Shown here piece by piece: positions 3,696 to 59,499 of a stretch of 64,000 bases of DNA. The translations under genes were made by a program, and so were the position numbers. Below the pieces are notes generated by a model. It did no database searches. It had not been told where the DNA came from and saw nothing but the letters and a program-made list of their open reading frames with translations. This DNA comes from an uncultured Candidatus Saccharibacteria bacterium. Lineage in GTDB: Bacteria; Patescibacteriota; Minisyncoccia; Phycocordibacterales; Zambryskibacteraceae. Within the stretch, counting starts at the first letter, position 1; each line of letters starts with the position of its first letter. The stretch lies in NCBI GenBank assembly GCA_964349945.1, contig CAYGIH010000001.1, positions 105,306 through 169,305 on the forward strand, read 5' to 3'.

Positions 3696-6182
3696 ATGAA
3701 GAAATTAATTTCCAGCTTGAAATTTAAGAAAATACTCACTACATACCTCGTAGGTGTTTTGCTTGTGCTTAACTTTCCATTTCAGGCTTATGCTGCCTTA
3801 GTAACTGTGGATGTGCAGGCTAATGGCTTAAACGCCTTAACTTTGGCAACATCAACAGATTCATTTGATATTTTAGTGTTTTCTACAGATGCAGCCAGTT
3901 GTCAGATGACTTCACCAACAACCTCTGGGATCTCTCCTTCAGCTAGCATGCATGTAAACCCAGGTGATGCTTTTTACCCTAGTATTGGTGGAAGTGTCAC
4001 TTTTTCTGTGACTTGTGATGATGGAACTGGAGTGACTGCATCAGACAGTGTGGTTGTCTCTCTACCAGCAGTTTCTGTCCCTCCAACACCTCCAACCGTA
4101 AACATCACAGCTAATGGCTCAGATGGCCCGGTGACTCTCACTTCTCCAGCTACATACACCTACACATGGACTTCAACAAATGCCACCAGTTGTATACTCA
4201 CATCTCCAGTAACTTCTGGTATATCAACAGCCGGTACAAGCTCAGCAGTTGCTCCAGGTAGCGCTTTCTATCCTGCAGTTGGTGCTCCAGTAACTATTAC
4301 TATCGAATGTACTGATGGGACAACAACAGTTTCTGACTCGGTGGTGGTGAGCCTTAACTCTGGAGGAGGTGGTACATGTACACTTCCAACTATAAACAGT
4401 TCTCTTACTGCTTCAGGTACTGTGAATACTCCATTTTCATACACAACAACTACAACCAGTACTTCTACTCCCTCATATTCAATTGGAGCTTCAGTCCTTC
4501 CAACAGGCTTGTCCTTTAGCACTACTACAGGAGTAATTTCTGGTACACCAACCCAAAGTGGAACATTTAATATTGCTATCACTCCAACAAATCCTTGTGG
4601 TACAGACACACAAACTTTAGTTATAACCATAAATCCAGCCGGTGGAGGGGGAGGGGCGGTCACAGTAAGTTTAATCCCAAATCCAACAACCTTATTAGCA
4701 AATGCTACCAGCACTCTGACTTGGTCTTCAACCAATGCCACATCATGTTCAGCTCCTTGGACAGTTTCTACAGCCACATCAGGTAACCAAGTTGTCATTG
4801 TGGCAACTACAACAACTTATACAATTACCTGTACAAATGGAGTTACTCCTGTTTCTGCTAGTGCAATAGTAACTGTTATAACTCCAGGTTCCTGCACCCT
4901 CCCAATAGTTTCAAGTGCACTTACTGCTTCAGGTACTGTGAATACACCATTTTCATACACAACCACCACAACCAGTACTTCTACTCCCTCATATTCAATT
5001 GGAGCTTCAGTTCTTCCAACAGGCTTGTCCTTTAGCACTACTACAGGAGTAATTTCTGGTACACCAACCCAAAGTGGAACATTTAATATTGCTATCACTC
5101 CAACAAATCCTTGTGGTACAGACACACAAACTTTAGTTCTAACCATAAATCCAGCTGGTGGAGGCGGTGGAGGAGTTACCCCGCCCGTTTCAACGGGTGG
5201 TGGAGGTGGAGGAGGTGGTCGTAGACATCCAGTTGTTACCACAACTACTTCAACTGGCCTTGAATGTTTCTACCTCAGAGATTATATGAGGAGAGATTTC
5301 AATAATGACCCTATGGAGGTTATTAAACTTCAAGCTTTCCTTAAGAGTTTTGAAGGATATGATTATGTGACTATTAATGGCACATTTGATCAAGCCACTT
5401 TTGATGCTGTTTCAGCATTTCAAATGAAATACGAAGCTGATATTCTCACTCCATGGGGACATACTGCTCCAACAGGATATGTATACATTTTGACCTTGAA
5501 GAAAGTAAATGAAATCTACTGTCAGAGAATATACCCAGTATCTGAACAGCAACAGCTCGAAATCAACGCTCACAGAGCCCTACTTGAGCGCCTAAATGCT
5601 ACAGGAGGCACTATCCCAAGCACAGAAGTGGGTATAAATTCAACAACTACACCAACAATACCGATAATTGGTGAAGCTTCTCCACCTAAAGGACAAAATA
5701 TCTCAAATATAGCCACAGCCTTGTTTGCATTCCCGACCACAATGCAAGGGTTTCTGCAATGTCTGTATGAATGGTTGCTCATACTAATTGTCCTTTATTT
5801 CTTAGGAGATGTCCTTAAAGATGTCCTTTATAAAGATGAAAAGGAAAATGTCCTTAAGAAATTCATAGCCAAGTGGACAATTATCATAGTTGGATTATTG
5901 GCAGCAATAATTATCGCTTTCATACTCTATGAGTGGTGTTTAATCTTCCCACTCCTTGTAGCACTCATACTTTCAATTATCTGGGTTTCGATTTATCCCA
6001 AACATGAGTCTATTAATACCGACATCAAATCTTGGTACATAGTCCTTAGAGCACGAGGAAAGTCTATGTGGATAAAATTTAAGAATAAGAATAATCAATT
6101 ACCTCCGGTGGTTAGTACTATTTCTATTGATAAAACTCTCATGAAGGTTGATGAAAAGATAGAGAATAAAAAGACTAATTAA
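3696..6182 (+). CDS. large cell-surface protein with a signal peptide, tandem putative Ig (He_PIG-like) repeats, Gly/Thr-rich linkers, a peptidoglycan-binding-like domain and a C-terminal membrane anchor
   Basis: Likely start is the MKKLIS… signal peptide; the ORF track starts at 3639. Duplicated segments match the putative Ig domain signature (…LPTGLSFSTTTGVISGTPTQSGTFNIAIT…). IKLQAFLKSFEGYDYVTINGTFDQATFDAVSAFQ resembles a PG_binding_1 domain. Hydrophobic C-terminal segments. Confidence 0.7.
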   Translation: MKKLISSLKFKKILTTYLVGVLLVLNFPFQAYAALVTVDVQANGLNALTLATSTDSFDILVFSTDAASCQMTSPTTSGISPSASMHVNPGDAFYPSIGGSVTFSVTCDDGTGVTASDSVVVSLPAVSVPPTPPTVNITANGSDGPVTLTSPATYTYTWTSTNATSCILTSPVTSGISTAGTSSAVAPGSAFYPAVGAPVTITIECTDGTTTVSDSVVVSLNSGGGGTCTLPTINSSLTASGTVNTPFSYTTTTTSTSTPSYSIGASVLPTGLSFSTTTGVISGTPTQSGTFNIAITPTNPCGTDTQTLVITINPAGGGGGAVTVSLIPNPTTLLANATSTLTWSSTNATSCSAPWTVSTATSGNQVVIVATTTTYTITCTNGVTPVSASAIVTVITPGSCTLPIVSSALTASGTVNTPFSYTTTTTSTSTPSYSIGASVLPTGLSFSTTTGVISGTPTQSGTFNIAITPTNPCGTDTQTLVLTINPAGGGGGGVTPPVSTGGGGGGGGRRHPVVTTTTSTGLECFYLRDYMRRDFNNDPMEVIKLQAFLKSFEGYDYVTINGTFDQATFDAVSAFQMKYEADILTPWGHTAPTGYVYILTLKKVNEIYCQRIYPVSEQQQLEINAHRALLERLNATGGTIPSTEVGINSTTTPTIPIIGEASPPKGQNISNIATALFAFPTTMQGFLQCLYEWLLILIVLYFLGDVLKDVLYKDEKENVLKKFIAKWTIIIVGLLAAIIIAFILYEWCLIFPLLVALILSIIWVSIYPKHESINTDIKSWYIVLRARGKSMWIKFKNKNNQLPPVVSTISIDKTLMKVDEKIENKKTN
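4404..4650 (+). repeat. intragenic direct repeat, copy 1 (about 250 bp, >95% identical to copy 2)
   Basis: The nucleotide stretch cttactgcttcaggtactgtgaata…ccataaatccagc recurs 516 bp downstream. Confidence 0.85.
4920..5166 (+). repeat. intragenic direct repeat, copy 2
   Basis: Near-identical to 4404-4650. Accounts for the spurious antisense ORFs at 4268-4798 and 4817-5242. Confidence 0.85.
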
Positions 6183-7227
6183 GAGAGAGGTTTCCTCGAG
6201 CTTTTATAGAATGTGTTTCAATAGCTAAATTTGGATTTTTGAGCAAGTTTATATAGGCAGTTATTCCTATCATTACCGCATTGTCTGTAGTCAGAGAGTT
6301 TTCAGGGAGAAGTAGGTTCAAACCAGTATTTTTGACTTTTATCTTCTCTAACTCACTTCTCAAGTATTTGTTTGCAGACACACCACCGGCCACAATAAGG
6401 GTGTTTACTCCATACTGTAGGAGAGCTTTTTCTGTTTTGGTTATAAGTACTTCTATGGCTGAATCCTCGAAGGCTCTCGCCATCTCCTCTTTAACTTCCT
6501 CGGTAATAATTTGATCTTTTAATCTATATAAAACAGATGTTTTTAGTCCAGAAAATGAGAAGTCAAAATCATCGGAGTTAATCATGGGTCGAGGAAGTTC
6601 AAAGCTCGGTGTTTTAGCTTCCTTTCTGTGCTTTTCTGCCAGTTTGGATATTTTGGGGCCACCTGGATATTCAAGACCGAGTAATCTAGCCACCTTATCA
6701 AAAGCTTCACCAACAGCATCATCTCTGGTTTGGCCAATCATTTTGTACTCTCCGTAATTCTTTATATATATTAGTTCTGTGTGTCCTCCGGAGATTAAAA
6801 GTGCGACTGCAGGGAGAATTAGTTTTTCTTTTATCCCAAAAAGAGTTGAATAAATATGACCTTCCATATGATTTATAGGCAAAACTTTGATGCCCCATTT
6901 CTCACCAATTTCTTGTGCGAAAACTATGCCTGCCCAAAGTGCAGGTTCAAGTCCTGGTCCGGCGGTCACGGCGATATAGTCTATGTTTGGTTTATCCAAA
7001 CTTTCCTGAGCCTCTTTGAGTACCTTTTCTACTAAAATTGGCAAATTCTTCTCATGTTCTCGTTTGGCAAGCATGGGGACAACTCCACCGAACTCTTTAT
7101 GCATATCTATCTGGGAAACAATGGCATTCGAAAGGATTTTAAATTGTGGGGCATCAATTTCACCACTACATTCGAGTAGAGCGACTGCAGTCTCATCACA
7201 ACTGGTTTCTATGGCTAAGATTTTCAT
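6175..7227 (-). CDS. tsaD: tRNA N6-adenosine threonylcarbamoyltransferase TsaD (Kae1/YgjD family)
   Basis: MKILAIETSCDETAVAL…, HMEGHI motif, about 350 aa. Confidence 0.9.
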   Translation of the reverse strand: MKILAIETSCDETAVALLECSGEIDAPQFKILSNAIVSQIDMHKEFGGVVPMLAKREHEKNLPILVEKVLKEAQESLDKPNIDYIAVTAGPGLEPALWAGIVFAQEIGEKWGIKVLPINHMEGHIYSTLFGIKEKLILPAVALLISGGHTELIYIKNYGEYKMIGQTRDDAVGEAFDKVARLLGLEYPGGPKISKLAEKHRKEAKTPSFELPRPMINSDDFDFSFSGLKTSVLYRLKDQIITEEVKEEMARAFEDSAIEVLITKTEKALLQYGVNTLIVAGGVSANKYLRSELEKIKVKNTGLNLLLPENSLTTDNAVMIGITAYINLLKNPNLAIETHSIKARGNLSLN

Positions 7228-10684: not shown

Positions 10685-10927
10685 TCAGATGTGAGCGGGG
10701 CGGAGCTCGCATTCACGCACACCGAAGCCAAATTTCCTTTCGAGGAATTCGATCACATATTCTGGTTCTCCTTGTGACCATTCCCCGGGTGATTTGAGCC
10801 GAGTGATTCGGCAACGTTTGTTGTCATTGATTCTGACACCAGACGTGCCTCGGTTTATGAATATGCAAACCTGACCAACATGATATCTGTGCCGAACTGG
10901 TTCATCAGCTGTCATGCTGATCTCCAT
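10685..10927 (-). CDS. hypothetical protein (elevated-GC gene)
   Basis: 80-aa ORF. Overlaps the upstream gene by 23 nt. GC is clearly above background. Confidence 0.4.
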   Translation of the reverse strand: MEISMTADEPVRHRYHVGQVCIFINRGTSGVRINDNKRCRITRLKSPGEWSQGEPEYVIEFLERKFGFGVRECELRPAHI

Positions 10928-11276
10928 CGTAAGGCGCGATTTTCAGCTCACGCTTGAGTCGCCTCTCTCGCTCTTCGAGGTGGTAGAGCTGGACTCGATC
11001 GCTGTCAATTGCAGCAGAACGCTTGGCTCGACGGGCATTCCAGGCATCTGTGCTGTAGTCTTCGGCTCTGTCCATACTTCGGACATCAGCGGTCATCTGG
11101 ATGATGCTCGTACTAAACTCGAGAATTCGCTTCTGAACATCTGCGAGTTCGGTCTGCTTCTTTTCAACCTTGCGCTTCTTGTACTCTCGCACCGCGTCCT
11201 TGATGACACCAGAGCTGAGAAGTAGAATTGCAAGGACAAACAGCAGAACAAAGATGTCGATCACGTAGCGCATCAT
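10905..11276 (-). CDS. hypothetical membrane-anchored coiled-coil protein (elevated-GC gene)
   Basis: N-terminal transmembrane segment (VIDIFVLLFVLAILLL) followed by a charged coiled-coil region. 123 aa. Confidence 0.45.
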   Translation of the reverse strand: MMRYVIDIFVLLFVLAILLLSSGVIKDAVREYKKRKVEKKQTELADVQKRILEFSTSIIQMTADVRSMDRAEDYSTDAWNARRAKRSAAIDSDRVQLYHLEERERRLKRELKIAPYDGDQHDS

Positions 11277-12004: not shown

Positions 12005-13195
12005 ATGTTAAAGAAATTGATTCGGCAGTACTATCTCTTGTCGTTCCTGTTCTCAGCAGGCGGCATGGCGATCATCAGTGCGACGTACGTCACTTTCCTC
12101 ATTCACAACGGTTTGAATTTGTTCGAAGTGAATTTGGTCAATGCGATTTTCTTTTTCACCCTCTTTATCTGCGAGATTCCAACCGGAGCCTTCGCAGATA
12201 TTTTCGGGAGGAAGCAATCGTTCGTGATGGCTTGTGCCATCACATCTCTCTCGATGTTTGTGTACGGTTTGTCCCATACATTTTGGGGCTTTGCTCTTGC
12301 AGAAAGTTTGGCCGCAGTTGGCAACACTTTCAGGAGCGGTGCCTTTCAAGCATGGTTCGTGGACAGCCTGAAGCATCATGGTTATGAAGGTTCTTATACC
12401 AAGCTTTTTGGGAGGGAGAGTCTTTATAATCGAGTCGGTGGCGGTCTCGGTTCTATCACTGGAGCTTATATCGCCGTTGTGAATCCCGCGTATCCATGGT
12501 TTTTGGGCGGGAGCATTATGTTCGTGATGACACTCATTGCCCTCAAGGTGATGAAGGAAGAATATTTTGTCCGACAGAGTTTCTCTTGGAAGAATGGTTT
12601 GAACAAGATGCTCGAGGTGGCGAAGACCAGTGTTCACTATGGAGCCACCCACAAGCCAGTGAGGTTTATCCTCATCGTCACCTTCATCGAGATCTATGCT
12701 GTGCAGGCCATCAACATGTACTGGCAACCGTTCTTTAGGCAGAGTGGAGTGAATGAACAACATCTTGGATTTCTTTTCTCTGGGATGATGCTCATGGTTG
12801 CACTCGGTGCCTACCTCGTCTCTCGGATGAACACAGAGGGCAAGGAACGAGTGATGATACTCTGGTCCATGATGTTCGTCGGGGTGATGATTTGGATAGC
12901 TTCTTTGTCACCTTGGCTCTCTGGAGCTATCCTTGCTTTCCTTCTCCACGAAGGAGGTAGGGGATTTTGGAATCCGATGAGCGACAGCTATCTCCAACAG
13001 AGGATTCCCTCCGAGGAGCGGGCAACCATCTCTTCATTCTGTTCGACGGCTCCGCACATCGGTGGGGCAGTCGGGCTCCTCGTGAGCGGTGGTATTGCCC
13101 AGATGTTTGGGATAACTGCTTCGTGGATGGTGGGTGGTGCGGTGCTCGTAGTCGGAGCATTTCTCGTTCGTAAAAACGGTTATGATTCGACCTAG
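12005..13195 (+). CDS. MFS transporter, drug:H+ antiporter-like (elevated-GC gene)
   Basis: 12-TM protein of 396 aa with MFS motif A (GAFADIFGRKQSF). GC about 50% against a background of about 35%. Confidence 0.75.
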   Translation: MLKKLIRQYYLLSFLFSAGGMAIISATYVTFLIHNGLNLFEVNLVNAIFFFTLFICEIPTGAFADIFGRKQSFVMACAITSLSMFVYGLSHTFWGFALAESLAAVGNTFRSGAFQAWFVDSLKHHGYEGSYTKLFGRESLYNRVGGGLGSITGAYIAVVNPAYPWFLGGSIMFVMTLIALKVMKEEYFVRQSFSWKNGLNKMLEVAKTSVHYGATHKPVRFILIVTFIEIYAVQAINMYWQPFFRQSGVNEQHLGFLFSGMMLMVALGAYLVSRMNTEGKERVMILWSMMFVGVMIWIASLSPWLSGAILAFLLHEGGRGFWNPMSDSYLQQRIPSEERATISSFCSTAPHIGGAVGLLVSGGIAQMFGITASWMVGGAVLVVGAFLVRKNGYDST

Positions 13196-16169: not shown

Positions 16170-16934
16170 ATGAGGACGAGAATCGTGTTTCTGGGCCTGC
16201 TTTTGGCCCTTGTAGCACCACTCGGGGCGCAGACGGGCAAGCCGTTTGTGAAGTTCCCGCAGACGAAGGAAAGCCTCGCTCGAGCCATCGAGTACGGCCA
16301 GGACGGCGACATGAAGGTTCTCAACATCACCGCGACGGACTTCGTCAAGGAGATGAATGAGATCTACAATCTCAAGTTGGAAAATCGCGAAGACCTCGCG
16401 AATCACTTGAGAAGCTTGACTGAGATGAGGTTGCCTCAGGGCATCTCGATTCACTTCGGTCGTTTGATCGGTTCCAAGCCTGACGACAAGGGTTGGGAGA
16501 GACCCGCGCATGAGAATGAGTATGGGCTCTTAAACAAGGTGACCCAGCGCATTGAATTGTCGTTGTGGTGTGGCAACCCGACGCCCGGACTTTTGTTCGA
16601 ACCGAAAGTACCCGAGCGATTGGTGATGACTCAGGTCGAGTCACCTGAACCGGCACCTGTGTCTTCGGCACCAACGACGACGAACGCTCAAGTGGGTATC
16701 ACCACACCGACCAAGGTCGAAGTGGTGGTCTCAGGAGAAGTCAAACTCACTCCGAACACTTCGAGACGTGAGACTCATCGCAGAGTTGAGCGGAGCCACT
16801 GGTCCCGCAACTGGGGCTGGTACGTTGGGAGCTTGATCACTGGCGTCGTAGGCTACTACGCCATCGACAACAACCCTCAATGGTTCAGAAGGAGTAGGGA
16901 TGTCATTGACATTGACATCAAACTGCACCGATGA
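16170..16934 (+). CDS. secreted hypothetical protein (elevated-GC gene)
   Basis: Signal peptide MRTRIVFLGLLLALVAPLGAQ. GC about 58%. No known motifs. Confidence 0.5.
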   Translation: MRTRIVFLGLLLALVAPLGAQTGKPFVKFPQTKESLARAIEYGQDGDMKVLNITATDFVKEMNEIYNLKLENREDLANHLRSLTEMRLPQGISIHFGRLIGSKPDDKGWERPAHENEYGLLNKVTQRIELSLWCGNPTPGLLFEPKVPERLVMTQVESPEPAPVSSAPTTTNAQVGITTPTKVEVVVSGEVKLTPNTSRRETHRRVERSHWSRNWGWYVGSLITGVVGYYAIDNNPQWFRRSRDVIDIDIKLHR

Positions 16935-17961: not shown

Positions 17962-18417
17962 CTAACGCATCAAATCCTTGAGTGCTACTTGCTTGGCTCG
18001 CCACTCGCGAAAGCGTGGATTGACGAAGAGGAAAATCCCTCCGACTGCCACCGCAGATACGAACGTCTTGGGGAAAAGGACGAATAGCTCAGCCAACCAC
18101 AATCCTAGGAAAGCTCCACAGAAGAGCCAAATACCTTCTGCGTAGTCGCCCCCCAAGAGTGACGTGATGAGGGCAAAGCAGGCGAGCAGGGTGGTGATGG
18201 TGACAGCGAAGCTGTGCTCATTCATATAGGTGAACAAGAGACCAGAGAAGAAGCAGATGCTCGGGATGACTAGCACCAGTCCGTTCTTCTTCTTCACTTG
18301 TTTACGGAACCAATGAATAAGGCCCACAAAAAGTGCAGTCATGGAACCTCCAGAGGGTGGGGAAGCGGAAAGTGTCTTCCAATATAATAACACAAATTGC
18401 AAATTTTGCAATATCAC
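17962..18417 (-). CDS. hypothetical integral membrane protein (elevated-GC gene)
   Basis: Four or more hydrophobic helices. GC well above neighbours. Start codon uncertain; an internal Met (MTALF…) is also possible. Confidence 0.45.
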   Translation of the reverse strand: MILQNLQFVLLYWKTLSASPPSGGSMTALFVGLIHWFRKQVKKKNGLVLVIPSICFFSGLLFTYMNEHSFAVTITTLLACFALITSLLGGDYAEGIWLFCGAFLGLWLAELFVLFPKTFVSAVAVGGIFLFVNPRFREWRAKQVALKDLMR

Positions 18418-24404: not shown

Positions 24405-25529
24405 TTATTTTACTTCCTTAGCGTCTTTGTCTAAGTAGGTGAGAGCCATTTTTTGTTCCTTGGCATCAAAGAGAGTAATCTTGAACGGATAAGTTTTACC
24501 CATTTCTAGTTTCTCCTTGAGTTTGTCTTCACCTCCGAATTCACTAACATGCACGAGTCCAGCTACTCCTTCTTCTATAGAAGCAAGCGCACCATGCTTG
24601 TTGTATTTGATGATTACTCCTTCTACCTGCATATCCTTCTTGTATTTCTTCTCTGCTTCCTTCCAAGGGTTTTCTTTCAAAGCCTTGATAGAGAGGGAAA
24701 TCTTTTCATCTTTGATTTCTATAATCTTGACCTTCACTTTCTCTCCTATCCTATACATAGCCTTTGGATTCTCGACTAGACCCCAATCGATTTCAGAAAT
24801 ATGTACGAGTCCTTCCAAACCTTCTTCTAATTTCACAAAGATTCCAAAGTCTACCAATCCAGTCACTTCACCAGTGAGTTCATCGCCCAAGGCATAGTGA
24901 GAGATAATTGATTCTTTGTTCTTTGTTTCTGGAGACTTCTCAGAGAAAATAAGTTTACCTTCTTTTGGATTGGCACCAATGATAGTAACCAAAAGTTTTG
25001 TGCCTACGAGTTTCTTTAATTCAGCGAGGATGCTGTCCTTGTCTCCGTCTGTCACACGTGGATAGTGCTCAGGCTTAAGTTGTGAGGCAGGAAGGAAACC
25101 CGAGATACCTTGCCAGTTGATAATGAGCCCACCCTTGTTGGCTTCGGTGATAGGGAGTTCGAAAACTCTCTTTTCATTGATAGCCGTATCTGCTTCACTC
25201 CAAATAAGAGCTTGTCTAGCTTCCTTGAGTGAGATTTCTATATAACCCTCTTTGCCTCCGATGCCTACAACCTTACCAGCGACAATGTCACCAATGTTTA
25301 TTTTCTTGATGATGTCTCTGGCATTTAGAAACTCTCGTCCATAGATAATACCGGTGCCGAAAGGAGCGAGGTTTATATAAACCGCACCCTTATCAACGCT
25401 TATCACTGGACCCTCAACTACATCATCAATTGATGGTGGAGTGGTGGTGTTTAAAACAATCTGACCCATGAGGCTCGTGTCTTCTACGACAGGAGCCTTT
25501 TCCTTCTTAACTTTTTCTTTTTTAATCAA
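24405..25529 (-). CDS. rpsA: 30S ribosomal protein S1 (four S1 domains)
   Basis: Repeated S1 RNA-binding domain patterns (GxV…G.FV.L…GL.H.SE). 374 aa. Confidence 0.75.
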   Translation of the reverse strand: MIKKEKVKKEKAPVVEDTSLMGQIVLNTTTPPSIDDVVEGPVISVDKGAVYINLAPFGTGIIYGREFLNARDIIKKINIGDIVAGKVVGIGGKEGYIEISLKEARQALIWSEADTAINEKRVFELPITEANKGGLIINWQGISGFLPASQLKPEHYPRVTDGDKDSILAELKKLVGTKLLVTIIGANPKEGKLIFSEKSPETKNKESIISHYALGDELTGEVTGLVDFGIFVKLEEGLEGLVHISEIDWGLVENPKAMYRIGEKVKVKIIEIKDEKISLSIKALKENPWKEAEKKYKKDMQVEGVIIKYNKHGALASIEEGVAGLVHVSEFGGEDKLKEKLEMGKTYPFKITLFDAKEQKMALTYLDKDAKEVK

Positions 25530-25639
25530 AATATAATGGCCACTTCCGGCCCTTTGCCTCAGAGTGTTTGCCTAGGCAGAAGGGGGTAACGGTTGTGGGA
25601 ACTAATAAACTGCAAGGCAGTTGGGTTATAAAGTAACAG

Positions 25640-26330
25640 AAAAATGAAAATTTGTAAACAGAAAACGCGTCCCGTTCGGGTACGCGTTGCTTTTAACTTG
25701 ATGTTTCAGGGTGCTGCCCCGTGGTCGCCGTCGAATGTTGTTGTCGTCCGGCGACCACGGGCACTACGCGCCGTTTCCTACGTGGCCTGTGGCCCAGTGG
25801 TCCTGATGAAGTATTGTGACGAGCCCGTTGGTTTCATCCAGTAAAGGATTACTACCAGGTTGGGTTAAGCTTCTGGCAGAAGCTCCGTTGCTCTTCACCT
25901 CCTAGTTTCCAGGAGCGGTCCTGGTGGCGACGTTGATGGCCGAAGTGCGGGGTTGACGACCCCAGCGACGTCGAGGCACCGTAAGCCTCTTTGGAGTCGC
26001 ACGCTCGCGTGCGGGCGGCATCGAAGCCGGCCGGCGAGCGGGCGCACTCACAGTGCGAACGGTGGTTGACCCACGTTAGCGTACCTACGTCATTGTTCTG
26101 CCTCCTGGCAGTCGGCGTTTGGCGTCAACTGTGGCGCTTAATGCCACACGAAGCGAATGAGGGACTTCCGGGTGCCCTCGACCCAAGCCGCGCGGTCCGC
26201 CTGTTGAAATCACAGAGCGGGCCACGCAAACCCCGCGACACGGCAGTGCGATGGCCAGATGGCTCCGCTACCGCCCATGAACTTTCGAACGCGGGGCAAG
26301 AAACATCAAGTTGTAAAGATCACTACTATT
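25640..26330. ncRNA. candidate structured non-coding RNA(s), identity unresolved (high-GC, ORF-free, hairpin-dense)
   Basis: GC roughly 60-65% over about 700 bp in a roughly 35% GC genome. Only junk-like ORFs. Many strong hairpins (for example gtggtcgccg…cggcgaccac and acgcgtcccgttcgggtacgcgt with a T-run). Strand not determined. Confidence 0.4.
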
Positions 26331-26457
26331 TCATCCTAGCATACTATATTGATATTGTCAAGCAATTAAATAATAAAATTGTCAATAGAGGCTAAACAGA
26401 GCCATATTTATAAAAATATGATTGGTATTTATAGACTGAATATGATAGAATATTCAT

Positions 26458-53414: not shown

Positions 53415-54245
53415 ATGAAAATCATTGGCAACAAAAATGCCCTTCATACACCTGAATTTCATAAGAAGAAATTAATGGAGAAGCGTATTCGCGTTGCAAT
53501 CATTACTATAATTATTTTGATTGTTACTATTGTCCCTGTTCTCATTCTTAGACATAAGAATTTTCAGATTACTAACATCGAAATTGTGGGCAATGTGGTG
53601 ACAAAGAATGAGGAAATTCAAGCAATTATTTCAAAAAATTTATCTGGCAACTATCTTTGGATTATTCCGCGTACTAATACTCTCCTTTATCCTAAAAATA
53701 AAATTATTAAAGATTTGATGGAACTTGAACCTAGACTTTCTAAAATAGAAGTTAATACCCCGTCTGTCCAATCAGTAATTTTCAATGTTTCAGAAAGATC
53801 CCCAAGAGCAATGTACTGTAATGATGTTTCAAACACTTCTACTCCAGCAGATTGTTATTTTATTGACTCAAATGGTTTTATTTTTTCTGAAGCCCCAGCG
53901 TTTTCTGGGGGAGTATATATGGTCTATACTAGTGACCCGAAGCTAGATTCTCCACTAAGAACAAACTATTTTGAAAAGGAAAAATTTTTATTAATAGATA
54001 ATTTTGTGACAAGTTTGCCAAATATTGATTTGTATCCAAAGATTTTTGAGTCAAAGCGAGATGAATATAGTCTTATACTCTCAAATAACGCCATAATCCG
54101 ATGGAATATTAAGCAGGATTTAACCACAATATATTCAAATCTCGATACATTAATTCATAGTGAATCTTTTAAAAAAGATGGTGGTTTTAATAACATTCTT
54201 TATTTAGAAATAATAGGTGGTAAGATGACGTTTAAGTATAAATAA
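53415..54245 (+). CDS. FtsQ/DivIB-like cell-division protein (putative)
   Basis: N-terminal transmembrane segment, then a POTRA-like module (…FQITNIEIVGNVVTKNEEIQAII…) and a beta-rich C-terminus. Confidence 0.5.
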   Translation: MKIIGNKNALHTPEFHKKKLMEKRIRVAIITIIILIVTIVPVLILRHKNFQITNIEIVGNVVTKNEEIQAIISKNLSGNYLWIIPRTNTLLYPKNKIIKDLMELEPRLSKIEVNTPSVQSVIFNVSERSPRAMYCNDVSNTSTPADCYFIDSNGFIFSEAPAFSGGVYMVYTSDPKLDSPLRTNYFEKEKFLLIDNFVTSLPNIDLYPKIFESKRDEYSLILSNNAIIRWNIKQDLTTIYSNLDTLIHSESFKKDGGFNNILYLEIIGGKMTFKYK

Positions 54246-55234
54246 TGAATAATTTTTGGAACAAGTTGGATAGGCCTTTTTTTTGTTTGGCACCTATGTC
54301 GGATGTGACTGATGTGGCATTTCGTTTTATGTTGGCAAAATATGGAAAAAATTTTGAGAACAAGAATCAAGTAGTATTTTGGACAGAATTTGTGGCTGCA
54401 GATGGTTTAGCTAATAAGTTGGCTAAAAAGAGATTAGCTCACATGCTTAAGTTTGCTGAGCGAGAAAGACCGATTGTGGCTCAAGTTTTTGGTGCTCATC
54501 CAGAAAATATGAAAAAGGCTTGTCAATATGTTGCAAGTCTTGGTTTCGATGGAATAGATATAAACATGGGATGTCCAGACAAATCAGTGGTAAGCCAAGG
54601 GGCAGGAGCGGGCCTTATTAAAACTCCAGAACTTGCAAGGCAAATTATTCAAGCGGCCCATGCAGGGATTGAAGCTGCGGGCTCGCACATTCCAGTATCA
54701 GTTAAAACAAGAATTGGGTTTAATAAAGAAGAAATAGACATTTGGATTCCTGAATTATTAAAGGAAGATATTTCTGCGCTTACAATTCACTTACGTACTG
54801 CCAAGGAATTGTCACTTGTGCCAGCTAATTGGGAACATCTAAAAAAGATAAAAAATTTAATTAAAAAAAGCGGTAAGGAGGTGCTTCTTATTGGTAATGG
54901 AGATGTTGAGAGTATAGAGGATGCTAAGGAGAGAGCATACAAATACGACTGTGATGGAGTGATGATCGGTCGTGGGATCTTTGGTAATCCTTGGTTTTTT
55001 TCTGAACACATTCCAACTCATATAGAAAAGTTAAACGCCCTAGTGGAACACACAAAGCTTTTTGAAGAGCTTTTAGGTAAACACAGTAATTTTGCAGTGA
55101 TGAAAAAACATTTTAAAGCTTATGTGAATGGTTTCGATGGTGCGGTTGAATTGAGGACTAAACTTATGAATACAAATTCGGCAAAGGAAATAGAAAAAAT
55201 TATTAAAAACTACTTATCCACAGGTCGCGTATAA
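54245..55234 (+). CDS. dus: tRNA-dihydrouridine synthase
   Basis: …FCLAPMSDVTDVAFRFM…FDGIDINMGCP… TIM-barrel Dus signature with catalytic Cys. 329 aa. Confidence 0.85.
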   Translation: MNNFWNKLDRPFFCLAPMSDVTDVAFRFMLAKYGKNFENKNQVVFWTEFVAADGLANKLAKKRLAHMLKFAERERPIVAQVFGAHPENMKKACQYVASLGFDGIDINMGCPDKSVVSQGAGAGLIKTPELARQIIQAAHAGIEAAGSHIPVSVKTRIGFNKEEIDIWIPELLKEDISALTIHLRTAKELSLVPANWEHLKKIKNLIKKSGKEVLLIGNGDVESIEDAKERAYKYDCDGVMIGRGIFGNPWFFSEHIPTHIEKLNALVEHTKLFEELLGKHSNFAVMKKHFKAYVNGFDGAVELRTKLMNTNSAKEIEKIIKNYLSTGRV

Positions 55235-55249
55235 ACACTTGCAAAGTTT

Positions 55250-55775
55250 TTTGGGTGGGTATATATTAATCCTTACCCTCAATCGGTATTCTCCGGTTGG
55301 TGGGAAACGACCACCCCTTACCAGGGCCAGTCGATGGTGAATCGTTTGGGCTCCGGGCTGTTCAACAGTTTCCGGAGTGACCTTCCGCCGTAGCTTCGGC
55401 CACGACCGTAAGGTCAGCGACACACCGATCACTTGGTAGATCTTCCTTGCTACCGCGCTTGACGCTTCGTCGAGCACTGTGATCCATTCCACGAATCCTG
55501 TGGAAGAACCCCTCAGTGTCTCCAGGGTTAAGAGAGATGCAACAAGTGCTCGTCAACGTAACGAGCAGGCGGCAGGAAGGCCGCAACCCTAGGTCGCTTC
55601 GTCGACCGGCTGCTGATACCAGACCACAACTATCCGCGTTCCGCGCGTCACAGCGGATCGGACTCTCCTGGGTCAGGCGTACAAATCGTTACGCCAAGCC
55701 TGGCCCAGTGAGAGGCTCCGATGCTCTACGAGCAACACACACCGCGACCGCAAGGCACGCGGTTTATTTTTTTTA
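55250..55775 (+). ncRNA. candidate structured non-coding RNA, identity unresolved (high-GC, ORF-free, ends in a strong intrinsic terminator)
   Basis: GC about 60% over about 500 bp. Only short overlapping junk ORFs on both strands. Numerous GC-rich helices. Some weak resemblance to RNase P RNA blocks (CCACGACC…, …CAGUGAG…) that I could not confirm. Terminator accgcg…cgcggt-T10 at 55741-55775. Confidence 0.4.
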
Positions 55776-55862
55776 TTCATTTTCCCTTTGACAAATTTAA
55801 TTTTTTATGATAATAAGGGTATAGAGCAGTTGTCCTTTTAGGCTACTTTCCAGGGGGTTTCA

Positions 55863-56729
55863 ATGCGTGCATTTCGATGGTTGTTGGGAGCAATACTGCT
55901 TATCACAGCGTGTCAGCATGACCGCTTGATCAGCATCAAGATTGACGATGGCTCAGGTCATCCAGCGGGCCCGTCTGGACCTTCTGCTCCGGCTGTTTGC
56001 CCGAGTGGTTTCAGTACGTGCACTGGGGCGCGGTGGAGCGATCTGGGGATGGCCCCACTCGACACCACGTACACCTTCAGCCACAAGCGTCACGTGCGAG
56101 GTCTCGCTTACATCCCGAGTGGTGCAAGCATCGAGATCCTCGTGCGCTCGACGCTTGGCTGTGAGGCTGTGGCCAGCACTCCGCAAGTGATTGCGACGAC
56201 GGTGTCGAATGTCTACACGGTGGATGTGGAAATGCAGGCAATCAACATTTGCTCTGACAGTACGGTCTTCAAGTTGAAGGCCGACTCGACTCAGCGCAAA
56301 GCTGTCCGTGTGACAGTAGTGTCAGCACCGGTGGTGGCGGGTTCAATCAGATTGAACCAGCCGACGACGCTTGGTGGTGTGGGTGCTACTGGGAGATACA
56401 CCTGCACAGTGACCGGCTTGTCTGATTTGAGATGCTGGTACTACAGCACCAATCCGCTTGTGGTGTCCATCGTTCAGAAGGACACGACTTACACCGTGGC
56501 CACATTCCCGTGGCCAGCCGGTGCGAATGTCGGTGGTACGTACAAGAACCTCGGTTCTGGTTCTGCGGGCATTTGTGGATTCAGCCCAAGCAATCCGGCC
56601 ATCGCGGATTGCAAGAACCACAACGTGTCTGCTGCCTCTTCTCTGATGTCCAGTTCGAACCTCATGGCTCCTGCTGAACTCCGTGAATGGGCAGTACCTG
56701 AGGTTCTCAAGAACCTTACGAAACCCTAA
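55863..56729 (+). CDS. putative lipoprotein, Cys-rich, secreted (elevated-GC gene)
   Basis: Lipobox LLITAC after a signal peptide. About 58% GC. 288 aa, no known domain. Confidence 0.5.
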   Translation: MRAFRWLLGAILLITACQHDRLISIKIDDGSGHPAGPSGPSAPAVCPSGFSTCTGARWSDLGMAPLDTTYTFSHKRHVRGLAYIPSGASIEILVRSTLGCEAVASTPQVIATTVSNVYTVDVEMQAINICSDSTVFKLKADSTQRKAVRVTVVSAPVVAGSIRLNQPTTLGGVGATGRYTCTVTGLSDLRCWYYSTNPLVVSIVQKDTTYTVATFPWPAGANVGGTYKNLGSGSAGICGFSPSNPAIADCKNHNVSAASSLMSSSNLMAPAELREWAVPEVLKNLTKP

Positions 56730-56740
56730 CGGGTACAATG

Positions 56741-56775
56741 GCCAGTCTATCTTCGGATAGCTGGCCTTTTTCTTT
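56741..56775 (+). terminator. strong rho-independent terminator
   Basis: ggccagtctatc-ttcg-gatagctggcc followed by T5. Confidence 0.8.
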
Positions 56776-58224: not shown

Positions 58225-59499
58225 ATGGATCGTTACGAAGATATTCGCTCCGGAATTGGCTCTGATTGGAGCGTTCGCAAAATCATCATCACGGTGGTGT
58301 CGGTTTTCGGCGCTATCGTTTTGATGGTTTTCGGCAGCAAGATGTTCGAGAACAATGGTGGCAGTGAGATCATGGTTGTGCAAGCGCCGTTTTCCGGCAA
58401 GTTCACCGTCTACAAGACAGCCGGCATGAAGTGGCAAGGGGGTGGAAGTGTTACGACCTACAAACTGCGTGAGCAGTTTTGGTTCTCTTCCGACCCCAAG
58501 CATGGAAGTGAAAAGGACGAGTCGATTGCGATTCGTTTCAATGACAACGGCACCGGACGGCTTTCTGGCTCAATCGCTTGGGAGATGCCTCTGTCGGACA
58601 GCCTTATCGTCCAGCTTCACAGGAAGTATCATGGTGAAGAGGCCATTCAGCGTCAGCTCATCAGTACTGTGGTTGGCAAGTCAGTCTTTTTGACCGGCCC
58701 GCTGATGTCTTCAACGGAGTCCAACTCCACGAAGCGCAACGATCTGCTGTCGCTGGTTAGCGATCAGGTCAATCACGGGGTCTACAAGACCGAAAGTCGA
58801 GATGAACACGTCAAGGATCCGATGACCGGCATCGATAAGACGGTGCGTGTCGTGAATCTGATTCCGAGCACGAAGGTGTCTGATCACGGGTTCGCTCGAC
58901 AGGAGAATTCTCCACTCGACGAATTCGGCATCCGTGCCTTCAATCTCTCTATCGACCAGATCCACTACGATCCGGACGTGGAGAAGCAGATCAAGGCTCA
59001 GCAGGAAGCGATCATGCAGGTTCAGACAGCCGTTGCACAGGCAAAGACTGCTGAACAGGCAGCGATCACGGCCGAGAAGAATGGTCAGGCTGAAGCAGCC
59101 AAGGCCAAGTGGGCCCAGGAAGTCATCAAGGCCAAGGAGGTCACGACTGCCGAACAGCGGAAGGAGGTAGCAAGGCTTGATGCTGATGCTGCCGAGTTCC
59201 GCAAGCTCGCGAACATTCGCGATGGTGAAGGTGAAGGACGAAAGCGGCAACTCATCATGGGTGCCGACGGCGCACTTGGCCAAAAGCTCGAGGCATGGGT
59301 GAAGGTGCAGGAGAAGTGGGCCGATGCGGTTAAGGGATACCAGGGTAACTGGGTTCCGTCTGTCGTGATGGGTAACGCTGGCAACGGCGTTGCCGGTTCT
59401 GGCGCCAATGGTCTCATCGACATGTTGATGGCTAAGACCGCCAAGGATCTTGCTCTTGACTTCCGTGCTGGTCTTAACGGACCGGTACGCGAAAAGTAA
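58225..59499 (+). CDS. SPFH/band-7 (prohibitin/HflKC-like) domain membrane protein (elevated-GC gene)
   Basis: N-terminal transmembrane segment, SPFH-like core, and a long Ala/Glu/Lys-rich coiled coil (…AQAKTAEQAAITAEKNGQAEAAKAKWAQE…). 424 aa. Confidence 0.6.
   Translation: MDRYEDIRSGIGSDWSVRKIIITVVSVFGAIVLMVFGSKMFENNGGSEIMVVQAPFSGKFTVYKTAGMKWQGGGSVTTYKLREQFWFSSDPKHGSEKDESIAIRFNDNGTGRLSGSIAWEMPLSDSLIVQLHRKYHGEEAIQRQLISTVVGKSVFLTGPLMSSTESNSTKRNDLLSLVSDQVNHGVYKTESRDEHVKDPMTGIDKTVRVVNLIPSTKVSDHGFARQENSPLDEFGIRAFNLSIDQIHYDPDVEKQIKAQQEAIMQVQTAVAQAKTAEQAAITAEKNGQAEAAKAKWAQEVIKAKEVTTAEQRKEVARLDADAAEFRKLANIRDGEGEGRKRQLIMGADGALGQKLEAWVKVQEKWADAVKGYQGNWVPSVVMGNAGNGVAGSGANGLIDMLMAKTAKDLALDFRAGLNGPVREK

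What the first reader, a model, noticed from the sequence alone, without database searches (positions are those of the whole stretch)
55250..55775. Second high-GC structured-RNA candidate, with a strong intrinsic terminator, between dus and a lipoprotein gene
The block is about 500 bp, about 60% GC, and ORF-free apart from short overlapping junk ORFs on both strands. It starts right after the dus stop and ends with a canonical terminator (accgcg-accgcaaggca-cgcggt followed by T10) on the + strand. Some blocks loosely resemble RNase P RNA conserved regions (…CCACGACCGU…CAGCGACACACCGAUC…; …GCCCAGUGAGAGG…), but I cannot confirm the P4 pseudoknot by eye. Together with 25640-26330, one of the two may be rnpB and the other ssrA or another RNA.
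Basis: partly seen in the sequence, partly recalled or inferred. Interest (0 to 1): 0.6.

Follow-up and report, generated by a model that had tools for sequence, protein, structure and literature searches.

The report
Lineage-specific structured RNA gene, not RNase P
The GC-rich block after dus is most likely a separately transcribed, highly folded non-coding RNA of about 500 nt, found so far in only three closely related Minisyncoccia (CPR) genomes; it matches no known RNA family and its function is unknown.

Summary
Window 55235-55862 is an intergenic region with a 56-59% GC core in a 40.5% GC window. A promoter-like site (TTGCAA-17-TATATT, 55239-55267) and an intrinsic terminator (55741-55775) bound it on the + strand.

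The same element sits between dus and the lipoprotein gene in two other Minisyncoccia lineages. Promoter, terminator and long blocks are invariant, although four-fold degenerate sites in flanking genes are only about 50% identical.

Frame-breaking indels exclude coding. The one shared 19-codon ORF has a non-coding substitution pattern. About 12 hairpins are shared: 90% of pair cells are paired, and 7 pairs changed on both sides (2.6 in shuffles).

The rnpB/ssrA/SRP reading is not supported. Rfam gives no match even at E<=10, ARAGORN finds no tmRNA, and the RNase P CR-I and CR-V motifs are absent.

Genome, metagenome, viral, phage and plasmid searches found no further relatives. More distant relatives carry unrelated GC-rich elements, or nothing, at this site.

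Best reading: a new, narrowly distributed, stand-alone structured ncRNA of unknown function. Only three variants exist and there is no expression data.

The parts
55239..55267 (+). Promoter-like site of the RNA gene: -35 TTGCAA (55239-55244), 17-nt spacer, -10 TATATT (55262-55267). Predicted start near 55274.
   Evidence: Consensus scan. The scan alone is not significant (6 sites found, 3.3 expected). However, ACTTGCAAAGTTTTTT is invariant over 16 nt and the -10 is kept (TATATT or TAGATT) in all three lineages.
55274..55772 (+). Predicted RNA, about 500 nt in the window and about 435-455 nt in the two orthologues. Both ends are inferred, not measured.
   Evidence: Bounded by the conserved promoter and terminator. 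MFE z=-4.75. No conserved long ORF. Frame-breaking indels lie inside conserved blocks.
55273..55333 (+). 5' domain: hairpin H1 (55273-55307) and H2 (CGAC/GUCG 55308-55333, enclosing CCCU/AGGG).
   Evidence: H1 has 3 pairs changed on both sides among the three variants. H2 is invariant.
55334..55393 (+). The only ORF shared by all three variants: 19 codons, MV..FR(S/G)DLPP-stop. It overlaps hairpin H3 (55351-55378) and the invariant block GACCUUCCGCCGUAGC (55379-55394).
   Evidence: Same start and stop columns in all three. Differences fall at codon position 1 more than 3 more than 2, with 5-9 non-synonymous against 1-2 synonymous codon changes per pair. It is most likely not translated.
55379..55415 (+). 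Hairpin H4: GACCUU/AAGGUC closing an inner UUCG-capped stem.
   Evidence: Outer stem invariant, inner part variable but still foldable.
55427..55484 (+). H5: stem GAUCAC/GUGAUC (GGCCAC/GUGGUC in L002). Its apical hairpin H5a (55435-55454) has a loop carrying CUUCCU (55442-55447). The window has an extra side hairpin here.
   Evidence: The CUUCC loop has unpaired probability 0.93-1.0 in all three variants.
55485..55564 (+). Variable central region with lineage-specific hairpins. The central region as a whole is about 50-70 nt longer in the window than in L004 and L002.
   Evidence: Not alignable between variants.
55568..55584 (+). Hairpin H7 with apical loop AGGAAG (55574-55579), complementary to the H5a loop. 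This is a candidate kissing-loop contact.
   Evidence: Stems differ between variants (GCGGC/GCCGC, GUGGG/CCCGC, GCGGG/CUCGC) while the loop stays GGAAG(G). Six complementary bases in each variant. Inferred, not tested.
55592..55741 (+). 3' domain, the best conserved part: H8 (55592-55607), H9 (55609-55639), H10 (55640-55657), long hairpin H11 (55658-55721), H12 UGCUC-UAC-GAGCA (55722-55734) and the CA-rich tail ACACACA.
   Evidence: 83-87% identity to the orthologues over about 210 nt, a stretch that also includes the downstream promoter. Both-side changes in H9, H10 and H11. CM R1 scores 178-201 bits on the three copies only.
55741..55775 (+). Intrinsic terminator: ACCGCG / CGCGGT stem, inner GCAA-capped stem, then UUUAU8.
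   Evidence: Conserved in all three variants.
55788..55814 (+). Context, not part of the RNA: separate promoter of the lipoprotein gene (TTGACA-17-TGATAAT), followed by a conserved 5' UTR.
   Evidence: Conserved in the three variants. Also present in L007, L009 and L010, including L010, which has no RNA element.

Best explanation
This is a stand-alone gene for a highly structured non-coding RNA of about 450-500 nt.

Shown by sequence comparison: a near-consensus sigma-70-type promoter begins 4 nt after the dus stop codon, and an intrinsic terminator ends the unit about 13 nt before the separate promoter of the lipoprotein gene. The RNA has a conserved 5' domain (H1-H4), a fast-evolving central region, and a strongly conserved 3' domain (H7-H12).

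Inferred: two apical loops, CUUCC(U) and (A)GGAAG, can pair as a kissing contact that would compact the molecule. The RNA most likely acts in trans as a folded RNA or protein-binding scaffold, not as a leader of the neighbouring gene. Its molecular function is unknown.

It belongs to no described RNA family and is restricted, as far as the data reach, to one small Minisyncoccia (Patescibacteria/CPR) clade.
For: Conserved position: the element sits between dus and the lipoprotein gene in three lineages. These are the window (=L001), L002/L003/L012, and L004/L005/L006/L013.

Purifying selection: four-fold degenerate sites in flanking genes are 52% (L002) and 49.5% (L004) identical. Aligned RNA columns are 69-76% identical, with invariant runs of 16-17 nt, and the 3' domain is 83-87% identical.

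Not coding: no long ORF is shared. Indels of 1 and 2 nt lie inside conserved blocks. The single shared 19-codon ORF has a non-coding substitution pattern. There is no tblastn similarity to the neighbouring lipoproteins.

Structure: of 114 proposed pairs, 90% of cells are paired, against 34-44% when partners are slid by 1-3 columns. Seven pairs changed on both sides, against 2.6 +/- 1.4 in shuffles (2 of 500 shuffles reach 7) and 0-1 in slid controls. All three orthologues have MFE z of -4.4 to -4.75.

Strand: several conserved G-U pairs would be A-C mismatches on the - strand. The promoter and terminator are both on the + strand.

Independence from the lipoprotein gene: that gene keeps its own conserved promoter, and in L010 it has that promoter with no RNA element upstream.
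Against: - Only three variants exist, so covariation has little statistical power. The structure was derived from these same sequences.
- There is no transcript evidence. The promoter match alone is no better than chance.
- The adjacent GC-rich CDS also folds well (z=-3.64), so the MFE z-score does not discriminate.
- dus has no terminator of its own, so the RNA could also be made as a dus 3' UTR.
- A 19-codon ORF ending in DLPP-stop is kept in all three variants.
- No associated protein or target was found, so the trans-acting scaffold role is inference only.
Confidence: 0.7

Rival explanations
1. It is a cis-acting leader or attenuator. A 19-codon leader peptide ending in Pro-Pro-stop (55334-55393) would stall ribosomes and set the fold of the downstream RNA, and so control read-through of the terminator into the lipoprotein gene.
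For: The ORF has the same start and stop columns in all three variants, and only its C-terminus (F-R-x-D-L-P-P) is conserved. AGGG lies 7-8 nt upstream of the AUG. From general knowledge, C-terminal prolines slow translation termination. The element is co-oriented with the lipoprotein gene and directly upstream of it.
Against: - The substitution pattern is not coding-like (position 1 > 3 > 2; 5-9 non-synonymous against 1-2 synonymous codon changes).
- The four four-fold sites in the conserved C-terminal codons never vary, although neutral sites are about 50% identical. That points to an RNA-level constraint.
- The stop codon lies about 350 nt upstream of the terminator.
- A conserved, near-consensus promoter sits between the terminator and the gene. 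L010 has the gene and that promoter without this element.
Confidence: 0.08
2. It is a 3' UTR of dus, or an RNA processed from one, rather than a primary transcript from its own promoter.
For: There is no terminator between the dus stop (55234) and the element. The first terminator downstream of dus is the one at 55741-55775.
Against: The 16-nt block containing the -35 and the -10 hexamer are conserved, while the last dus codons and adjacent bases vary. Relatives carry unrelated elements at the same place, each with its own promoter-like site. L002 has a very different dus (61% aa identity) but the same RNA.
Confidence: 0.1
3. It is non-functional DNA: a decaying remnant of a GC-rich acquired segment or pseudogene that came in with the GC-rich lipoprotein gene.
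For: The whole stretch from about 55275 to 56760 is GC-rich. The element exists only in a small clade. The site carries different GC-rich inserts in relatives, and none in L010, L172 and L173.
Against: Conservation is far above the neutral level, with invariant blocks. Helices keep pairing through compensatory changes. Promoter and terminator are conserved. No protein similarity in any frame.
Confidence: 0.07
4. It is a highly diverged RNase P RNA, or tmRNA or SRP RNA, of a CPR bacterium that Rfam models miss.
For: CPR RNase P RNAs can score below Rfam thresholds (PMC8172020). The size, GC content and a possible long-range pairing GACCUUCC/GGAAGGC are loosely reminiscent.
Against: - No RNase P, tmRNA or SRP match even at E<=10.
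- No CR-I or CR-V motif within 3 mismatches.
- No P1 pairing of the two ends.
- In the possible long-range helix the purine-rich strand is the 3' one, the reverse of P4 (knowledge of the E. coli RNA).
- ARAGORN is negative.
- No recognisable homologue in relatives with 81-83% identical TopA.
Confidence: 0.03

Closest known systems
Orphan large structured bacterial ncRNAs found as GC-rich intergenic regions in AT-rich genomes (OLE, ROOL, GOLLD, raiA, HEARO)
   Same: About 0.45-0.5 kb, many hairpins, far more GC-rich than the genome, own promoter and terminator, non-coding, sequence and structure conserved.
   Different: No match to any of their Rfam models. Known from only three closely related genomes, not from many genera. 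No recurrent partner genes. Only three variants, so the structure is much less well supported.
Bacterial RNase P RNA, including the diverged CPR forms described in PMC8172020
   Same: Similar size, GC-rich, multi-domain fold.
   Different: No covariance-model match, no CR-I/CR-V (P4) motifs, no P1, and not conserved in related genomes.
tmRNA (ssrA)
   Same: Length and GC-richness. A short ORF lies inside a structured RNA.
   Different: ARAGORN and Rfam are negative. The ORF starts with AUG and ends in DLPP, and has no tag-like ending.
Multi-hairpin protein-sponge RNAs (CsrB/RsmZ type)
   Same: Stand-alone transcript built of many hairpins, one of them with a GGA-containing apical loop.
   Different: Only one GGAAG loop rather than many repeated GGA loops, and no Rfam match. 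This resemblance is recalled from general knowledge and was not tested further.
Leader-peptide attenuators
   Same: A short upstream ORF with a conserved C-terminus ending in Pro-Pro-stop, followed by structured RNA and a terminator.
   Different: Non-coding substitution pattern. The terminator is 350 nt away. An independent promoter drives the downstream gene.

Membership tests
RNase P RNA (Rfam RF00010, RF00011 and related) | Covariance-model match | tested here: not met
   No match at gathering thresholds in the window and none at E<=10 on 55100-55950. Caveat: E-values are scaled by 4227 families, so scores near 5-10 bits, as used in PMC8172020, would not be listed.
RNase P RNA (Rfam RF00010, RF00011 and related) | Conserved CR-I (GAGGAAAGUCCGGGC) and CR-V (ACAGAAnCCGGCUUA) forming helix P4 | tested here: not met
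   With up to 3 mismatches there is no match inside 55235-55862 or 25600-26400. Matches elsewhere are at chance level.
RNase P RNA (Rfam RF00010, RF00011 and related) | P1 helix pairing the 5' and 3' ends | tested here: not met
   The 5' end is in local hairpin H1. The 3' end is a CA-rich tail plus the terminator.
RNase P RNA (Rfam RF00010, RF00011 and related) | Universal gene, recognisable across related genomes | tested here: inconclusive
   No homologue at the syntenic site or within the fetched 7-11 kb of L007, L009, L010 and L171-L173. Those genomes were not searched whole.
tmRNA | tRNA-like domain and tag reading frame (ARAGORN, Rfam tmRNA models) | tested here: not met
   ARAGORN finds no tmRNA in 55000-56000 or in the whole window. 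No Rfam match.
SRP RNA and 6S RNA | Covariance-model match | tested here: not met
   No match at E<=10.
Riboswitch or cis-regulatory 5' leader | Lies within the 5' UTR of the regulated gene, with no promoter in between | tested here: not met
   A conserved TTGACA-17-TGATAAT promoter lies between the terminator and the lipoprotein gene. L010 has the promoter and gene without the element.
Stand-alone structured ncRNA (generic kind) | Own promoter and terminator, conserved in orthologues | tested here: met
   These are consensus matches plus conservation; no transcript mapping.
Stand-alone structured ncRNA (generic kind) | Non-coding and under purifying selection | tested here: met
Stand-alone structured ncRNA (generic kind) | Covariation supporting a conserved secondary structure | tested here: inconclusive
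   Seven pairs changed on both sides against 2.6 +/- 1.4 in shuffles and 0-1 in slid controls; 90% of cells paired. Only 3 sequences, and the structure was derived from them.
Stand-alone structured ncRNA (generic kind) | Expressed as a discrete RNA | not testable with these tools
   No transcriptome data available.

The most novel reading that the evidence does not exclude
In Minisyncoccia, the site just downstream of dus and upstream of a GC-rich surface-lipoprotein gene may be a hot-spot. Different lineages there carry different, fast-turning-over, promoter- and terminator-bounded GC-rich RNA genes: this roughly 500-nt RNA, the L007/L009 type, and the L171 type.

These could be one very rapidly evolving RNA kept by position and function, or repeated inventions of large ncRNAs. 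They may belong to a GC-rich set of independently transcribed envelope genes whose base composition is actively maintained in an AT-rich CPR genome.
Probability: 0.15. Interest if true: 0.7.

Novelty: new member of a known kind. Interest (0 to 1): 0.42.

Why it matters
Large structured non-coding RNAs beyond the universal ones are rare, and each new class has tended to reveal unexpected biology. Almost none are described for the CPR/Patescibacteria, whose small genomes leave little room for non-essential DNA.

A conserved 0.5-kb RNA gene kept under selection in such a genome is therefore likely to do something useful. Its value is limited for now by a very narrow distribution, an alignment of only three sequences, and the lack of any functional clue or expression data.

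Tried and rejected
- **Known RNA families:** Rfam at gathering thresholds and at E<=10 on both GC-rich blocks, ARAGORN, and RNase P CR-I/CR-V motif scans were all negative.
- **Similarity between the two GC-rich blocks in the window:** none.
- **More homologues:**
  - An exact-pattern scan of GTDB species genomes with GACCTTCCGCCGTAGC..AAGGTC gave only the L002 lineage plus one chance hit.
  - A JGI metagenome scan with GATGCTCTACGAGCA..ACACAC gave only the L004 contig plus 11 chance hits.
  - Two IMG/VR scans gave only chance 15-mers.
  - blastn against phages and plasmids gave nothing.
- **Synteny walk:** Dus and FtsQ-like homologues led to relatives with unrelated elements or none. nhmmer and covariance model R1 found no distant copy.
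- **Pseudogene of the lipoprotein or another protein:** no Pfam or tblastn signal.
- **Base-pairing with the lipoprotein 5' UTR:** unrestricted duplex energies were no better than shuffled controls, so this was dropped.
- **Structural aligner:** mafft-qinsi was not installed, so helices hidden by MAFFT misregistration (H5, H7, the H11 tip) were checked by hand only.
- **Literature:** searches found no description of such an RNA in CPR.

Full report
**What is there**

The window is AT-rich (40.5% GC). Its genes are those of a Minisyncoccia (Patescibacteria/CPR) bacterium; sources name the homologues as Minisyncoccia.

- dus (54245-55234, Pfam Dus E=5e-58) is followed by a 628-nt gap.
- Next comes a 288-aa ORF (55863-56729) with a signal peptide and lipobox (LLITAC, read directly from the sequence). 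Its relatives carry a weak Big_2 Ig-like match.
- The gap has a 56-59% GC core.
- A sigma-70-like promoter (TTGCAA-17-TATATT, 55239-55267) starts 4 nt after the dus stop.
- A stem-loop followed by UUUAU8 lies at 55741-55775.
- The ORFs inside the gap (92, 74 and 91 aa) have no Pfam match.

**Is it more than chance?**

The + strand folds with z=-4.75 and the - strand with z=-4.23. That alone is weak, because the GC-rich lipoprotein CDS next door gives z=-3.64. Two other CDS give -1.72 and -0.01.

The decisive evidence is comparative. The lipoprotein has only two other homologue clusters among 5.8 billion proteins. Their contigs carry the same dus-gap-lipoprotein arrangement, which gives three distinct versions of the gap:
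- the window (=L001);
- L002/L003/L012;
- L004/L005/L006/L013.

In the alignment, the promoter is kept (16 invariant nt around the -35, and the -10 preserved). The terminator is also kept, along with several invariant blocks:
- GUCGAUGGUG
- GACCUUCCGCCGUAGC
- GGAAGGC
- GGAUCGGA
- CCGAUGCUCUACGAGCA
- ACACACA

The central part is not alignable; the window's RNA is about 50-70 nt longer overall.

Four-fold degenerate sites of flanking genes are only 52% (L002) and 49.5% (L004) identical. Aligned RNA columns are 69-76% identical, and the 3' domain is 83-87% identical. The element is therefore under purifying selection.

**Coding or not**

- No ORF of 25 aa or more is shared.
- Indels of 1 and 2 nt lie inside conserved blocks.
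- No frame resembles the neighbouring lipoproteins.
- One 19-codon ORF (55334-55393, MV..FR(S/G)DLPP-stop) is kept in all three versions.
  - Its differences fall at codon position 1 more than 3 more than 2.
  - It has 5-9 non-synonymous against 1-2 synonymous codon changes per pair.
  - The four-fold sites of its conserved C-terminal codons never vary.
  - This pattern points to constraint on the RNA (hairpin H3 and the invariant block), not on a peptide. I keep it as a low-probability rival.

**Structure**

Folding the alignment domain by domain gives about 12 shared hairpins plus the terminator.
- Of 114 pairs, 90% of cells are paired, against 34-44% when partners are slid by 1-3 columns.
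- Seven pairs changed on both sides, against 2.6 +/- 1.4 in shuffles (2 of 500 reach 7) and 0-1 in the slid controls.
- MAFFT misregistration hides further compensatory changes, which can be read directly:
  - H5: GAUCAC/GUGAUC against GGCCAC/GUGGUC.
  - H7: GCGGC/GCCGC, GUGGG/CCCGC and GCGGG/CUCGC.
  - Tip of H11: GCGUA/UACGC against UCAGU/ACUGA.
- Conserved G-U pairs, the promoter and the terminator all point to the + strand.
- In all three versions the apical loop of H5a carries CUUCC and the apical loop of H7 carries GGAAG, six complementary bases, while both stems differ. This is a candidate kissing-loop contact. It is inferred, not tested.

With three sequences, and a structure derived from them, this support is suggestive rather than statistically firm.

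**What it is not**

- Rfam 15 finds only 11 tRNAs in the window at gathering thresholds.
- At E<=10 there is nothing but chance snoRNA/sRNA matches on 55100-55950 and on 25500-26450.
- ARAGORN finds no tmRNA.
- Lui et al. (PMC8172020) showed that diverged CPR RNase P RNAs can fall below Rfam thresholds. I therefore searched for the P4-forming CR-I and CR-V motifs with up to 3 mismatches, and neither GC-rich block has them.
- The ends do not pair as a P1 helix.
- The two GC-rich blocks of the window are unrelated to each other.

The rnpB/ssrA/SRP reading is not supported.

**Distribution**

- Pattern scans of GTDB species genomes and JGI metagenomes with invariant blocks returned only the known lineages plus chance hits.
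- IMG/VR, phage and plasmid searches were negative.
- Walking outward by synteny gave relatives with 81-83% identical TopA that do not have this RNA:
  - L007 and L009 carry a different GC-rich element at the same site, with its own promoter and terminator. The two are related to each other (local alignment z=13) but not to ours.
  - L171 carries a third kind.
  - L010 has none.
  - In L172 and L173, dus is followed directly by a DNA polymerase III delta'-like (holB-like) gene.
  - Sources.
- nhmmer and a covariance model of the 3' domain find no distant copy.

**How it most likely works**

Shown:
- an independent, conserved transcription unit by sequence criteria;
- a non-coding sequence under purifying selection;
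- a conserved multi-hairpin fold;
- independence from the lipoprotein gene, which keeps its own conserved promoter, including in L010 where there is no RNA element.

Inferred:
- the RNA is abundant;
- it is compacted by a loop-loop contact;
- it acts in trans as a folded RNA or RNP scaffold.

I put about 0.7 on 'functional, separately transcribed structured ncRNA'. Any specific role deserves much less.

Rivals:
- dus 3' UTR-derived RNA, 0.1
- leader-peptide attenuator, 0.08
- non-functional GC-rich remnant, 0.07
- diverged RNase P, tmRNA or SRP RNA, 0.03

**Novelty and score**

It is a new RNA family candidate of a familiar kind: an orphan structured ncRNA revealed by a GC-rich gap in an AT-rich genome. 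A 0.5-kb conserved RNA gene in a reduced CPR genome is worth a specialist's look. However, only three closely related carriers are known, there is no expression evidence, and there is no functional lead. Interest is 0.42.

Noticed in passing
window 10905-11276(-), 12005-13195(+), 16170-16934(+), 17962-18417(-), 55863-56729(+), 58225-59499(+): Codon GC3 is bimodal. These 6 of 54 ORFs have GC3 of 0.59-0.69, against 0.23-0.41 for the rest. Those that can be classified are membrane or secreted proteins: an MFS transporter, the lipoprotein, an SPFH protein and small transmembrane proteins. Lipoprotein orthologues in five other lineages are all GC3 0.60-0.69, although four-fold sites are near saturation. 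The GC-richness therefore appears to be maintained, not just recently imported.
   Followed up: partly
L007 6060-6425 and 6440-6610; L009 6100-6330; L171 6905-7310: In relatives, the same gap between dus and the downstream gene holds other GC-rich elements, each with its own promoter-like site and terminator. The L007 and L009 elements are related to each other (z=13) but not to the window RNA. L010, L172 and L173 have none. This may be a hot-spot for lineage-specific RNA genes.
   Followed up: partly
L007 about 6146-6280 (= L008 4414-4548): The L007 element contains a called 44-aa ORF, MHRIAFHRSDQGYTDGNVITMLTLDFAGARNIVDPGGCGGGCGC, with a Gly/Cys-rich C-terminus. It is not evident in the related L009 element.
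   Followed up: no
window 25655-26320 (- strand): This is the other GC-rich block (60% GC), with a terminator on the - strand near 25660-25700. It has no Rfam match even at E<=10, no tmRNA, no CR-I/CR-V motifs, and no similarity to the 55-kb RNA. It may be a second orphan ncRNA.
   Followed up: partly
L002 6450-7427 compared with window 54245-55234: The dus gene of L002 is only 61% identical in protein to the window's. Flanking topA and dprA are 93-95% identical, and the RNA and lipoprotein are about 70-80% identical. This suggests that dus was replaced by recombination in one lineage.
   Followed up: no
window 55863-56729 compared with P0002 and P0003: The window's lipoprotein (288 aa) lacks the roughly 85-aa N-terminal Ig-like (Big_2) segment present in the 377-aa and 370-aa orthologues.
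   Followed up: no
window 55776-55862: The lipoprotein promoter (TTGACA-17-TGATAAT) and much of its 5' UTR (CAGAGC..UUGUCCUUUNAGGCUACUUU) are highly conserved across the three lineages. The lipoprotein CDS itself folds unusually well (z=-3.64).
   Followed up: no
window 55463-55473 and 55595-55605: An 11-nt direct repeat, CGCTTCGTCGA, occurs twice inside the RNA. The first copy lies in a window-specific side hairpin and the second in conserved hairpin H8. This may reflect a local duplication.
   Followed up: no
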